A DNA stretch of 64,000 nt, taken from the NCBI RefSeq assembly GCF_044324875.1, contig NZ_CP172185.1; one strand, written 5' to 3'. Positions 25,819-32,371 of this stretch are shown here, piece after piece. How positions within the stretch are numbered: the first letter of the stretch is position 1; every line of letters starts with the position of its first letter. Origin of the DNA: Escherichia coli. GTDB lineage: Bacteria; Pseudomonadota; Gammaproteobacteria; Enterobacterales; Enterobacteriaceae. Below the pieces are notes generated by a model, which saw only the letters and a program-made list of their open reading frames with translations, searched no databases and was not told the origin of the DNA. The translations under genes and the position numbers were made by a program.

Positions 25819-26282
25819 TCAGCTAATCGTGATGCCTGCAGTGGCTTTCTTCATCACAACAACAAGAAGGTCACTGATACTGGTTGTTGGCGTCCAGTTA
25901 TTTGCACCATATGAAGAAACATTGAACGTCAGGGTGACATTCCCGTATCCCGCGGGCATATCAATCACCGATGAAAATACCCTGCTGACATCTGTCGCGG
26001 GCTCATGAAAGATTTCCTGTCCGTTCTTCAGTACCTGCAGTTTACAGGTTGAATACCAGTATGACTGTTGGTTCTTACTGTTGAAATTCTGATGTTTCAT
26101 CCCGCGAAAAAGCACCGGGGGAATGATAATCTGCCGGTCGAATCCCTGATCATCGTAAACAGTGACGGTTATCGTGCCACTGGCATAGCTGTTATTACGG
26201 GGAAAGGCTTTCCCCACAGTCTTCACCAGGTCGCCTTCAATCTGGCTGGCAGACAGTTTTCCCAGAACCCGACAGTTCTCGT
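25819..26282 (-). pseudogene. Tail tip/host-specificity protein J, C-terminal receptor-binding fragment (separated by IS21-family element)
   Basis: In-frame with J body after removing the IS and one duplication copy (…[33 protein letters not shown]…); same architecture as the lambda J C-terminus. Confidence 0.8.
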
Positions 26283-26381
26283 TGCGTATTCCGCTCTATT
26301 CGATCACGGATTGGCATCGAAGTCCGATCAGCGATTCGCATCCATTCGATCAACCGGGAACTTAACTTTTTCTACCGCTTT

Positions 26382-27137
26382 TTAACGCGTTTTTTCGCTG
26401 CTTTCCACTACCGGGGGATTTTTCCTCAGTGACTCTCCCTGAAGGACCACTCGGTGTGAGTTATGTACCAGTCTGTCCAGGATGGCATCTGCTGTTGTTG
26501 GGTTCTCCATCAGACCATGCCATTTATCTACCGGGAACTGGCTTACCACTATCGTGCTGCTTTGTCCGTAACGATCCTCTATGAGCTCCAGAAGGTCATT
26601 ACACTGGGCGTTACTTAACTGTTCCAGCCCCAGATCGTCCAGGATTAGAACCTGTATTTTTTGCAACTGTTTCAGATATTTCAGCCAGCTGCCATCAACA
26701 CGTCCCTGAGCCAGTTGTTCCAGTAATCGCCCGGTTCTACAGTACCGGACGCTGTGTTTCTGTCGACATGCCTGTTCGCCCAGCGCATTGGCTATCCAGC
26801 TCTTGCCACATCCTGTCGGACCGGTTATCAGCAGGTTTTTCCTGTGGGTTATGTAGTGGCCGTTCAGCAGTTCTCTCATCTGTTCAGCCCGCAGACCTCT
26901 TGAGGCCGGATAGCGCAGCCCTTCCGGTGTTGCCTGGTATTTCAGGCCGGCATTTTTTCTCAACCGTGCCACACGGCTGTTTTCCCTGCTCAGAAGCTCG
27001 TCATCAACCAGCAGCGTCAGCCTTTCCTCGAACGACAGTTCGTCGTAGGTCTGAGGCGTTTCCCGCTGCCGTATCAGGCTCCCGGCCATCGCCGGGAGTT
27101 TCAGTTGGGTCAGTTTGTTTAACAGGTTATCACTCAT
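26382..27137 (-). CDS. istB: IS21-family IstB ATP-binding helper
   Basis: Walker A (GPTGCGKS) and Walker B (ILDDLG); start set to MSDNLLNKL overlapping the istA end. Confidence 0.88.
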   Translation of the reverse strand: MSDNLLNKLTQLKLPAMAGSLIRQRETPQTYDELSFEERLTLLVDDELLSRENSRVARLRKNAGLKYQATPEGLRYPASRGLRAEQMRELLNGHYITHRKNLLITGPTGCGKSWIANALGEQACRQKHSVRYCRTGRLLEQLAQGRVDGSWLKYLKQLQKIQVLILDDLGLEQLSNAQCNDLLELIEDRYGQSSTIVVSQFPVDKWHGLMENPTTADAILDRLVHNSHRVVLQGESLRKNPPVVESSEKTR

Positions 27138-27153
27138 ACTGTTGTTCCTTCTG

Positions 27154-28800: not shown

Positions 28801-28921
28801 TCAATGATCGGAAGCATGCCAAATCGTGATCGATTGTGATGCCAAACTGTGATCGGAGATGGATGCCAAATCATGATCGATTCGAATGCCAAACTGCGAT
28901 CGATTCAGATGCCATTTTGCA

Positions 28922-31900
28922 CTCGTTAATCGTGACGTTGTTGAGCGAGCCCGAATTCGCATTCACGTTACCACTGATATCGGCATTTTTCGCCGTCAGA
29001 CGCCCGTCCGGTGTCAGGGAAAATGCCGGGGGATTGCCGGATGAGGTGATACTCACCGCAAACAGTCGCTTCATGAAAACATCATTCATGAACAGCTGAT
29101 CACCCTGAGCCACAAACAAAGGTGTTGTATTGCCATTTTCCGGGTTAATCATCGCAATACGATCTGCCTGCATCAGGATCTGACTCTGAATTCCGTCAGA
29201 CGTATTTTCGATTCCGGCACCAATACCTGCAATATAGAGACGTCCATCCCGTGTCTGCTGCAGCTTCACAGCCCACATGCTGTTCAGGTTCCGGCGCGTG
29301 TCCTCCTGAACTTTCTGTATCTGCTCAATGCTGGCATTCCAGGATCCCAGTTTTTTATCCGTGCTCTGTTTGATCTGACTTCCCTTATCATCAACATACT
29401 GTCTGATCTGCGCTATCTGTCGGCTGTTCTCCTCCGTGCTCCTGCTTACTGTCTGCCGGATTTCGCTGCCCATCCTGTCAACTTTTCTGTCAACTTCCGC
29501 AATGGCCATTGACTGTTCACCGCTCTTTTTCGCCACAACAGTACTTATTTGCGCACTTTTATCATCAACATACTGCCTGACCTGCGCTATCTGTCGGCTG
29601 TTCTCCTCCGTGCTCCTGCTCACTGTCTGCCGGATTTCACTGCTCACGCTGTCAACTTTCCTGTCGACTTTCGCAATGGCCAGCGACTGTTCACCGCTCT
29701 TTTTCGCCACCAGTTCCGTTATGCTGTTTTCAGACGCCGTGATTTTTTTCGTCACCCCGGCGATATCACGCTCCGCACGCTGCCTCACATCTTTCTCCAG
29801 CTGCGTCATTTCGCGGTTAATCTCATTCTCCAGTTGCTCAACTTCAGTGCGCCGTGCAGAGGCATCAATGCGTTCATTGATCTCCCGTCCCAGATGCGTT
29901 TTATTTATCGCCCCCCTGAAAAAATTAAGGTAACCGGCAGGATCATTACTCGCCCGACCGACTGCCTCCACGAATGCCGATTTACCGACAGTGTTAACAC
30001 TGCGGATATAAAAGTAATAATCATGGCCAGGTTTAATATTCTGGCCGGAGACAAGCCACTGACTTCCGGTACCAAGATAACGGGCTGTGGTTTCAACCTG
30101 CCTGATATCGGTAATCCGCTTTTCCGAGAACCAGAACTCAAACTGCACCGTCGGATCATAAACGGCAAGATGCGGCGTGGCGGTTATCTGAAAATAGCCC
30201 GGCGTCAGCTCAATCCGCGACGGCGCTGCCGGTGCGGCAATCCGGAACGATACCGACGCCGGGTCTCCCTGCTGCCCCCGGGCATTTACTGCCCGGACTG
30301 TCAGCCTGTAGTTCCCCGGCGCCAGCTGCCTGAAGCGGTATGTGGTTTCCGTCGTCCGGGCCGTGCTGACCAGCCGCTCACTGCCGTCATCCGCTGCCAC
30401 GGTCAGGCGAAGCATGAAACTCACGCCTTTCACCACCTTCGGCGTGTCCCAGCGGGCCAGTACCTGATACTCCCCGCTGTCTGCGGTGACTTCGACAGTC
30501 AGGTGCTGCACTGCTGGCGGCGTGACACCATTCACCGTGCCGCTCTGGTCACCGTCAAAGTGTGCCCCGTTATCCACGATGCCCTCTTTTTCCGGTACAT
30601 GCTGCACGGCAGTGATGGCATACGTGCCGTCGTCGTTCTCACGGATACTCACGCAGCGGAACAGGCGCTGGCGCAGCGTCGGCAGCTTCAGCCCCCACAC
30701 GCTGTACTCGGCAACGCCGTCAGGAACCCGGCTCACTTTTACCTTCACGCCGTCGGTGACGGACTGAACCTCCACGCTGACCGGATTGCCACTTCCGTCA
30801 ACCAGGCTTATCAGCGTGGTACCGGAGGATGGCAGCGTGATTTCACGGTCGAGCGTCAGCGTCCGGGTCTGGCTGTTCACCGCCAGCACACGACCACCGG
30901 TGCTGATACCGGCATAGTCATCATCACAGATTTCAATGACATCCCCCGGTACATGGCGAAGCCCTTCAGCACCCACGCTGAAATCCACGGTCTGCGTCTC
31001 CAGCAGTTCTGTTTTAATCAGCCACAGCCCGGCGCGGTGTGCCTGCCCCCGGCTGGTACAGCCAAAGGCATCCATCTTCGTGACGTTACGACCGTAACGG
31101 GCAATGGCCTGCGTGTCCTCCACAAGCTCTGTCGCCGTCTCCTGGCCGTTATCCGGGTCACTCCAGTTCACCTCAACGGCATTATGGCGGTCCTTCAGGG
31201 CGCTGAAGCTGTAGCGGAACGGCGCGCCATCATCCGGCATCACCACATTACTGCGGTTATAGGTCCACACCTTATCCGACGGCCGGTCCTGCACGAACGT
31301 CAGCGTCTGCCCGTTCCATACCGGCATACAGCGCATCGCCGAGCAGAAATCACTGAGCACATCCCACGCCTTACGCTGCCTGGTCAGCCAGGCATTACAG
31401 GTGATGCGCGGCTCCGTGCCACCAGAGCCGTCCGGCACCGACTGGTCGCAGTACTGGCCGATAACATACAGCGCCCATTTGTCCACATCCGCTGCGCCAA
31501 CACGTTTCCCCATGCCGTAGCGCGGGTGGGTCAGCATATCCCACAGACACCAGGCCGGGTTATCGCTGTATGCCGGTTTAAACGTTCCGTCCCAGATACC
31601 GCTGTATTGCCGCGTCTGCGGGTTATAGTTCGACGGCACCTGCAGAATGCGCCCGCGAAGATGATAATTACGGCTCACCTGCTGGCTGCCGAACTGCTCC
31701 GAATCCACCTGCACACCGACCAGTGCCGTGTTCGGGTAGCACTGTTTCACATCGATGATTTCGGTGTATGACGACCAGAGCGTTTTGTTCTGCAGCTGGT
31801 CTGTGGTGCTGTCCGGCGTCATCCTGCGCATCCGGATACTGAACGGGCGCGGCGGCAGGTTACCCACCACCACCGAGGCCAGATACTGCGAGGTGGTTTT

Positions 31901-32371
31901 GCCCTTAATGGTGATGTCTTTTTCCGTTAACCAGCGACCGTTACGCTGTATCTGAACCAGCAGGCGGACTTCCGACGGATTCCGGTCCCCCTTTGAGGTG
32001 GTTTCCACCAGTGCCTGCACACCGAAGGTCAGGCGCAGACGGTCGATGTTTGCCGACGTGATGGTCCGGGTAATCGGCGTGTCGTACTTCACTTCCGTAC
32101 CCAGCACCGTCTCGGAGCCGGAGGATTCAAATCCCTCCGGCGGCGTCTGCTCCTGCTCACCGGCCCGGAATACCACCGTGACGCCGGATATATTGGTATT
32201 CCCCTCACTGTCCAGCACCGGCGTACCGTTCAGCAGCACGCTTTTTAATCCATCCACCGGTCCTTGTATCGGCCCTTCGCTGATGACATCGATCACACTC
32301 AGCAACTGCGTGGACTTCAGGTTGTCCTTCGCTTCGCGCGGGGTATGCCCCTTACTGCTGCCTTTACCCAT
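28922..32371 (-). pseudogene. Tail tip/host-specificity protein J (lambda gpJ-like), N-terminal 1150 codons; C-terminus displaced by IS21-family element
   Basis: [28 protein letters not shown]... matches lambda J; ORF reads 16 codons into the IS before stopping. Confidence 0.9.

What the first reader, a model, noticed from the sequence alone, without database searches (positions are those of the whole stretch)
25819..32371. J is split by an IS21-family element with a 5-bp duplication; its C-terminal receptor-binding domain differs from lambda
The insertion can be reconstructed base by base. Removing 26283..28921 and one CTCGT copy restores one frame of about 1302 codons. The reconstructed junction is close to lambda J, but the last 150 residues diverge, implying a different receptor. 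The prophage cannot make functional tail tips.
Basis: seen in the sequence. Interest (0 to 1): 0.55.

Follow-up and report, generated by a model that had tools for sequence, protein, structure and literature searches.

The report
Insertion sequence splits prophage tail-tip gene
A common, fully intact IS21-family insertion sequence has jumped into the tail-tip (J) gene of a lambda-like E. coli prophage, cutting off its receptor-binding domain. That domain is a widespread non-lambda type that probably binds OmpC, so this is an ordinary case of prophage decay.

Summary
Window 26283..28921 is a 2639-bp IS21-family element of the ISSso4 type with TG...CA ends, intact istA and istB, and CTCGT direct repeats on both sides. 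It is 100% identical to copies in many E. coli genomes. Removing the IS and one CTCGT gives a 1302-codon J reading frame. The reconstructed 600-bp junction is 100% identical to uninterrupted gpJ genes in three complete E. coli genomes, which are true empty sites.

The IS sits after codon 1150. This is between the tail-tip fibre domain and the C-terminal receptor-binding domain (RBD). The expected product has the hub, the FNIII domains and the fibre, but no RBD.

The comparison with lambda needs correcting. Residues 1-836 are 93% identical to lambda J. A 175-residue, apparently helical insertion follows (837-1011), which lambda lacks. The fibre prism is 65% identical and the RBD 45%.

The RBD is 89% identical to that of phage 21 and 77% to the "A8" gpJ RBD. 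A8 uses OmpC and has been solved in complex with it. This RBD type occurs in about 45% of complete E. coli genomes.

The same prophage carries two more simple IS insertions: ISCro1 in the side tail fibre gene and IS100 in the early region. The finding is ordinary and of low interest.

The parts
28922..32371 (-). 5' part of gene J: codons 1-1150, covering hub domains, two Ig/FNIII domains, the helical shaft and the tail-tip fibre prism
   Evidence: ORF list. Residues 1-836 are 93% identical to lambda J. Pfam Ig_J covers 614-714, Ig_J_second 716-818 and Phage_Tail_Tip 1015-1142.
28871..32371 (-). Reading frame as it now stands: J residues 1-1150 fused to 16 IS-encoded residues ([16 protein letters not shown]), then a stop. 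The product is 1166 aa and lacks the RBD.
28922..28926 (.). Target-site duplication copy CTCGT, on the J 5' side
26283..28921 (-). IS21-family insertion sequence of the ISSso4 type, 2639 bp, TG...CA termini, transposase genes on the same strand as J
   Evidence: 100% identical full-length copies in E. coli, annotated as IS21 family transposase and ISSso4-family IstB. Element ends confirmed in six other copies.
27154..28689 (-). istA, IS21-family transposase, 511 aa, intact
   Evidence: NF033546 scores 284.7 bits against a cutoff of 160. Coordinates transferred from identical annotated copies.
26382..27137 (-). istB, AAA+ helper ATPase, 251 aa, intact
   Evidence: NF038214 scores 257.8 bits against a cutoff of 200
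28793..28921 (.). istA-proximal IS end, with several direct copies (about five) of a ~20-bp motif GATGCCAAAnnnTGATCG
   Evidence: the repeat finder families D1 and D2
26283..26352 (.). istB-proximal IS end, with 2-3 copies of the same motif in inverted orientation
   Evidence: Inverted repeats I2 and I4-I7. Alignment of the two ends.
26278..26282 (.). Target-site duplication copy CTCGT, on the J 3' side
25819..26277 (-). 3' part of gene J: codons 1151-1302 plus the stop. This is the C-terminal receptor-binding domain, now cut off.
   Evidence: Pfam Ig_GpJ_C (PF12421) covers residues 1179-1302. DNA is 100% identical to intact gpJ in four genomes. The RBD is 77% identical to A8 gpJ, 89.5% to phage 21 and 44.7% to lambda.
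29339..29863 (-). J residues 837-1011: a 175-residue insertion relative to lambda J at the position of lambda's alpha-helical shaft. No Pfam domain matches it.
   Evidence: Lambda domain order taken from PMC11101478.
29385..29710 (-). 174-bp tandem duplication (1.9 copies, 92% match) inside the insertion, encoding a repeated 58-aa block

Best explanation
An active, intact IS21-family element of the ISSso4 type transposed into gene J of a lambda/phage-21-like E. coli prophage and duplicated 5 bp (CTCGT) of the target. The insertion lies after codon 1150, between the tail-tip fibre prism and the C-terminal Ig-like receptor-binding domain. Translation therefore ends 16 codons into the IS, and the product has hub, FNIII domains, shaft and fibre but no receptor-binding domain. 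Virions from this prophage, if any were assembled, should be unable to bind the host receptor and trigger DNA ejection. Before the insertion, J was a 1302-aa mosaic: a lambda-like N-terminal 836 residues, a lengthened shaft with an internal 58-aa duplication, and an RBD of the common phage-21 / Stx-phage / A8 type, whose most likely receptor is the porin OmpC. Shown here: the insertion, the duplication, the restored frame, the empty sites, the domain position and the sequence relationships. Inferred: loss of adsorption and OmpC specificity.
For: IS boundaries, CTCGT repeats and the restored 1302-codon frame. Empty-site genomes are 100% identical across the reconstructed junction, and one carries an annotated intact 1302-aa gpJ differing at 23 residues. 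The IS is 100% identical to many full-length copies, with at least 80% coverage in 225 genomes. Other copies have 4-7 bp repeats at the same ends. IstA and IstB both exceed the curated NCBIfam cutoffs. The reconstructed J scores 2301.6 bits against the lambda_TipJ cutoff of 1950. In Pfam, Phage_Tail_Tip ends at residue 1142 and the Ig_GpJ_C RBD starts at about 1164-1179, so residue 1150 lies between them. The best PDB match is 'A8 gpJ 713' at E = 6e-139. Entry 9wcb also contains OmpC chains. A8 gpJ delivers DNA through OmpC in a lamB/ompC deletion background complemented with OmpC variants (PMC11338833). RBD identity is 77% to A8 and 44.7% to lambda.
Against: No experiment shows that the truncated J is non-functional or that the prophage is otherwise inducible. 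23% of RBD residues differ from A8. In the cited study the two chimeras A8 and 1A2 already differ in which OmpC variants they accept, so the exact receptor or variant could differ. Phage 21 has the closest named RBD (89.5%), and I found no receptor assignment for it in the searched literature. Gifsy-1 J, another OmpC user, has an unrelated RBD, so OmpC use does not define one sequence family.
Confidence: 0.9

Rival explanations
1. The two J fragments were joined to the IS by recombination between two IS copies or another rearrangement, not by a simple transposition into an intact gene.
For: The region is rich in IS elements and remnants, so IS-mediated rearrangements are plausible nearby.
Against: Both flanks are collinear with one uninterrupted gpJ in four genomes. 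A perfect 5-bp direct repeat brackets the element, and excision restores the frame exactly.
Confidence: 0.02
2. The RBD still recognises LamB as lambda does, and the sequence divergence is neutral drift.
For: The RBD belongs to the same Pfam family as lambda's (PF12421) and is 44.7% identical to it.
Against: It is much closer to the A8 RBD (77%). A8 works in lamB deletion cells through OmpC and is solved in complex with OmpC.
Confidence: 0.07
3. The RBD binds an outer-membrane protein other than OmpC or LamB, for example OmpF or another porin, or only particular OmpC variants.
For: 23% of RBD residues differ from A8. A8 and 1A2 differ in their OmpC-variant range. Lambda J can switch to OmpF through a few substitutions (established knowledge, not tested here).
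Against: The nearest RBD with an experimentally defined receptor uses OmpC.
Confidence: 0.2
4. J was already a decayed pseudogene before the IS arrived, so the IS insertion is not what inactivated the tail.
For: The prophage carries other IS hits, in stf and in the early region. The order of these events is unknown.
Against: The reconstructed J is one open frame of 1302 codons, passes the curated lambda_TipJ cutoff and is 98% identical to an annotated intact gpJ. There are no frameshifts or internal stops.
Confidence: 0.03

Closest known systems
ISSso4-type IS21-family insertion sequences of E. coli and Shigella
   Same: 100% nucleotide identity over all 2639 bp to annotated copies. It has the istA plus istB gene pair, TG/CA termini, reiterated subterminal repeats and short target duplications.
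   Different: Nothing in the element itself differs. Only the insertion site, in J, is particular. No complete E. coli genome in the collection carries this J allele interrupted.
Lambda gpJ (tip attachment protein J; PDB 8IYK, 8XCG-8XCK)
   Same: 93% identity over residues 1-836. The domain order is the same: hub, FNIII x2, helical shaft, beta-prism fibre, Ig-like RBD.
   Different: It is 170 residues longer, owing to a 175-residue insertion at the shaft with a duplicated 58-aa block. The prism is 65% identical and the RBD only 45%. Lambda binds LamB.
A8 chimeric gpJ (PDB 9WCA/9WCB; Nature 2024, PMC11338833)
   Same: RBD 77% identical, with an ungapped alignment of the last 152-159 residues. 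The chimera junction in A8, just before NNVTINENC, lies a few residues upstream of where the IS cut this J.
   Different: A8 is an engineered lambda backbone without the long shaft insertion, and 23% of RBD residues differ.
J proteins of phage 21 and of long-tailed Stx-converting phages (BP-4795, Stx2 phage 1717)
   Same: RBD 89-91% identical. Phage 21 J is 94% identical over residues 1-836.
   Different: Phage 21 J is 1160 aa and lacks most of the shaft insertion. I found no receptor assignment for these phages in the searched literature.
IS-disrupted defective lambdoid prophages of E. coli
   Same: Simple IS insertions in late or tail genes of otherwise complete prophages. Here there are three in one prophage.
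   Different: Nothing conceptually different.

Membership tests
IS21 family insertion sequence | Two consecutive genes: istA (DDE transposase with N-terminal HTH) followed by istB (AAA+ helper ATPase) | tested here: met
   IstA matches NF033546 at 284.7 bits (cutoff 160). IstB matches NF038214 at 257.8 bits (cutoff 200). They lie on the same strand, 16 bp apart.
IS21 family insertion sequence | Imperfect terminal inverted repeats ending 5'-TG...CA-3', with reiterated subterminal repeats | tested here: met
   Ends are TGCGTATT... and ...TTTTGCA. The ~20-bp GATGCCAAAnnnTGATCG motif is repeated several times (about five) at one end and 2-3 times, inverted, at the other.
IS21 family insertion sequence | Short direct target duplication on insertion (4-8 bp in the family, from general knowledge) | tested here: met
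   CTCGT here. Six other identical copies show 4-7 bp duplications.
IS21 family insertion sequence | Transposition activity (two-step reactive-junction mechanism) | not testable with these tools
   Recent mobility is inferred from 100%-identical copies at many different sites.
Lambda-type tip attachment protein J (NCBIfam NF049904 lambda_TipJ) | Full-length match above the curated cutoff | tested here: met
   The reconstructed protein scores 2301.6 bits against a cutoff of 1950.
Lambda-type tip attachment protein J (NCBIfam NF049904 lambda_TipJ) | Domain order: hub, Ig/FNIII x2, tail-tip fibre, C-terminal Ig-like RBD | tested here: met
   Pfam PF24421, PF24489, PF09327 and PF12421 occur in that order. 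The N-terminal 836 residues are 93% identical to lambda J.
Lambda-type tip attachment protein J (NCBIfam NF049904 lambda_TipJ) | Gene context: downstream of the M-L-K-I tail-tip genes and upstream of the side tail fibre gene | tested here: met
   Collinear with the annotated LH50-c prophage.
OmpC-binding gpJ RBD (A8 type) | Sequence similarity of the RBD to the OmpC-bound A8 RBD | tested here: met
   77% identity over 152 residues with no gaps. PDB 9wca is the best hit at E = 6e-139.
OmpC-binding gpJ RBD (A8 type) | Conservation of the receptor-contact loops and actual OmpC dependence | not tested
   Coordinates of 9WCB are not readable with these tools, and no adsorption data exist for this allele.

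The most novel reading that the evidence does not exclude
The 175-residue shaft insertion, with its recently duplicated 58-aa block, could be a length-tuning module. It might let this J class project its OmpC-type RBD further from the tail tip, for example through O-antigen or capsule. Tandem duplication and deletion of the 174-bp unit would then act as a fast evolutionary length switch. Separately, the orphaned RBD fragment downstream of istB could be expressed by read-through from the IS. Neither idea is supported beyond the sequence anatomy.
Probability: 0.05. Interest if true: 0.35.

Novelty: already known. Interest (0 to 1): 0.1.

Why it matters
The main value is for annotation. J here should be called one IS-interrupted pseudogene, not two genes, and the prophage should be flagged as tail-defective, with three IS hits. 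The RBD assignment to the phage-21/A8 class, probably OmpC, is a useful label when predicting host range of lambdoid prophages. This class is present in nearly half of complete E. coli genomes. Nothing here changes understanding of IS21 transposition or of J function.

Tried and rejected
1. An exact-sequence look-up of the 1166-aa truncated product in the assembly collection found nothing. The allele is probably annotated as a pseudogene or is absent, so I could not count strains sharing the insertion that way.

2. Literature searches for a receptor of phage 21 or of Stx-phage J proteins found nothing usable. A 2026 receptor-prediction preprint covers Drexlerviridae GpJ, not this class.

3. 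Gifsy-1 (OmpC) and HK97 (LamB) J proteins were fetched as receptor-labelled comparators, but their RBDs show no detectable similarity to this one. They neither support nor contradict the OmpC inference.

I scanned residues 613-1302 instead.

5. Scans of genome contigs or metagenome contigs for the junction were considered and not run. The empty-site evidence already settles the question, and the species-representative collection would contain few E. coli.

6. Structure prediction of the shaft insertion was considered and not run. 'Helical' rests on its position relative to lambda's alpha-helical shaft, on composition, and on weak Pfam hits to helical-repeat families.
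Full report
**1. Observation**

Gene J lies on the minus strand. Reading the window shows ...CAGTT CTCGT | TGCGTATTCCGC... at 26278-26283 and ...GCCATTTTGCA | CTCGT TAATCG... at 28921-28926. The 2639-bp segment 26283..28921 therefore starts with TG, ends with CA, and is bracketed by a perfect 5-bp direct repeat.

In-silico excision of the segment plus one CTCGT joins the ORF that starts at the ATG at 32371 to the stop at 25819..25821. The result is one open frame of 1302 codons. Removing the segment alone leaves a stop at codon 1169.

**2. It is a real, simple transposition**

The segment is 100% identical over its whole length to elements annotated [quoted passage not shown] on chromosomes and plasmids of many E. 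coli strains. 225 genomes have a place covering at least 80% of it.

- istA is 27154..28689 (511 aa) and istB is 26382..27137 (251 aa). Both are intact and exceed the curated NCBIfam cutoffs: 284.7 bits against 160, and 257.8 bits against 200.
- The ends carry the reiterated ~20-bp motif GATGCCAAAnnnTGATCG. There are several direct copies (about five) next to istA and 2-3 inverted copies at the other end. This is typical of IS21-family ends.
- Six other identical copies, fetched with their flanks, begin and end at exactly the same bases. Their own target duplications are 4-7 bp long (CCGGG, ATTGAC, TTTAC, GTCTGCG, TCCT, CAGGTAA). A 5-bp duplication is therefore normal for this element.
- A 600-bp query made from the reconstructed junction is 100% identical and contiguous in E. 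coli LH50-c, NRZ14408 and LT599825, and 99.8% identical in Ch1. In LH50-c the gene is annotated as an intact 3909-bp gpJ. It differs from the reconstructed protein at 23 of 1302 residues.
- Only these four records in 5,426 complete genomes carry this exact 3' fragment, and none of them is interrupted. The insertion is therefore specific to the source strain or lineage. The perfect identity of the IS to its other copies suggests the event is recent.

**3. What the insertion does to J**

The reconstructed protein passes the curated lambda_TipJ model at 2301.6 bits against a cutoff of 1950. Pfam on residues 613-1302 gives the following layout:

| Residues | Pfam result |
|---|---|
| 614-714 | Ig_J |
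| 716-818 | Ig_J_second |
| 819-1014 | no domain |
| 1015-1142 | Phage_Tail_Tip |
| 1179-1302 | Ig_GpJ_C, "C-terminal receptor binding domain" (model positions 16-135) |

The IS lies after codon 1150 (...[13 protein letters not shown]...), between the fibre prism and the RBD. This aligns with lambda residue 980.

The frame as it now stands (28871..32371) encodes J residues 1-1150, then [16 protein letters not shown], then a stop. According to the lambda tail-tip structures, the RBD is the Ig-like C-terminal domain. Its loops insert into the receptor trimer, and its opening triggers the rearrangement that unplugs the tube (PMC11101478).

Losing the RBD should therefore abolish receptor binding and triggering. 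It might also disturb trimer assembly of the fibre. This step is inferred and was not tested.

**4. How J differs from lambda**

| J segment (residues) | Relationship to lambda J |
|---|---|
| 1-836 | 93% identical |
| 837-1011 | No counterpart; lambda goes directly from 836 to about 841 |
| 1012-1150 (prism) | 65% identical |
| 1151-1302 (RBD) | 44.7% identical |

The extra 175 residues sit where lambda has its alpha-helical shaft. They have a charged, low-complexity composition with weak hits to helical-repeat families. They also contain a 174-bp tandem duplication at 29385..29710, with 1.9 copies at 92% match, which encodes a repeated 58-aa block.

It misses the reason for the 170-residue length difference.

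**5. Which receptor**

The best solved relative of the C-terminal 483 residues is PDB 9WCA/9WCB, "A8 gpJ 713", at E = 6e-139. Lambda gpJ is next at about 5e-92.

- A8 is a lambda gpJ chimera carrying the C-terminus of a natural E. coli phage gpJ. It delivers DNA into lamB-deleted cells and depends on OmpC, as tested on 23 OmpC variants (PMC11338833).
- Entry 9WCB also contains three chains of "Outer membrane porin C", so it is a solved RBD-OmpC complex.
- The window's RBD is 77-78% identical to A8's without gaps. It is 89.5% identical to phage 21's and 91% to those of BP-4795, Stx2 phage 1717 and many other Stx phages.
- HK97 (LamB) and Gifsy-1 (OmpC) have unrelated RBDs.

I therefore assign the RBD to the phage-21/A8 class, with OmpC as the most likely receptor at about 0.65 probability. 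This is an inference. Contact-loop conservation could not be examined, and I found no receptor assignment for phage 21 in the searchable literature.

The class is common. DNA 80-90% identical to the 464-bp 3' fragment covers at least 80% of it in 2430 of 5426 complete E. coli genomes. A protein search was saturated with E. coli homologues covering the whole C-terminal 483 residues, shaft insertion included.

**6. Context**

The window is E. coli. Positions from about 17,600 to 64,000 are a lambda/phage-21-like prophage collinear with the one next to the trp/ompW region in LH50-c. From about 64,000 leftwards it runs: immunity region, replication, Q, tRNAs, lysis, terminase, head, tail, J, side tail fibre, DUF4376 protein, YadA-like protein, sigma-factor-like HTH protein. 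The head and tail ORFs upstream of J look intact by length.

Two further simple IS insertions are present:

- ISCro1 (IS66 family) occupies 22814..25512 with an 8-bp duplication GAAGAATC. It sits inside the side tail fibre gene immediately downstream of J. Excision restores a 589-aa collagen-repeat fibre protein.
- IS100 (1954 bp) occupies 57913..59866 with a 5-bp duplication GTAAC, in the early region.

Left of the prophage, positions 1 to about 17,000 hold sitBCD, the aerobactin genes iutA/iucABCD and many IS remnants. Phage 21 itself carries sitCD just beyond its tail-fibre genes, so the sit genes here may originally have been prophage cargo.

**7. Verdict**

The element is a known IS. The target is a known and common J allele that exists intact elsewhere. 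IS inactivation of prophage tail genes is routine prophage decay. The finding is already known in kind, and its interest is low (0.1).

Noticed in passing
window 22806..25520: A second IS in the same prophage. ISCro1 (IS66 family: tnpA 225 aa, tnpB 115 aa, tnpC 523 aa) occupies 22814..25512 with an 8-bp target duplication GAAGAATC. It splits the side tail fibre gene that starts at 25760, immediately downstream of J. Excision restores a 589-aa collagen-repeat fibre protein ending at 21284.
   Followed up: yes
window 57908..59871: A third IS. IS100 (IS21 family, 1954 bp) occupies 57913..59866 with a 5-bp duplication GTAAC, inserted in the prophage early region. In strain TUM9803 the corresponding site lies within a hypothetical gene, upstream of which sits a ParDE toxin-antitoxin pair.
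   Followed up: partly
window 29385..29710: A 174-bp tandem duplication (1.9 copies, 92% match) inside J encodes a repeated 58-aa block. It lies within a 175-residue shaft insertion (residues 837-1011) that lambda and phage 21 lack. It may be a fibre-length polymorphism.
   Followed up: partly
window 1..~17000; L012 7269..8474: Left of the prophage lies a sitBCD plus aerobactin (iutA, iucDCBA) island full of IS remnants. Phage 21 (OL657228) carries sitC and sitD directly downstream of its tail-fibre genes, so the sit genes here may have begun as lambdoid-prophage cargo.
   Followed up: no
window 52978..53131: Two adjacent tRNA genes on the minus strand, between Q and the lysis genes of the prophage. 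ARAGORN calls them tRNA-Arg(tct) and tRNA-Met(cat). The second is annotated tRNA-Ile in a related genome, so it is presumably a lysidine-modified CAT tRNA.
   Followed up: no
window 25761..25818: Between the J stop and the side tail fibre start, the minus strand carries a GC-rich hairpin followed by a T run (GGCGCCAGAAATGACGCCTTTTTT). This is terminator-like, and phage 21 has an annotated terminator at the same position.
   Followed up: no
L010 14066..19373 versus window ~53000..53500: The closely related prophage in strain TUM9803 carries an IS421 and an IS3 remnant holding a group II intron (ltrA), where the window has none. Different strains have accumulated different mobile elements in the same prophage backbone.
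   Followed up: no
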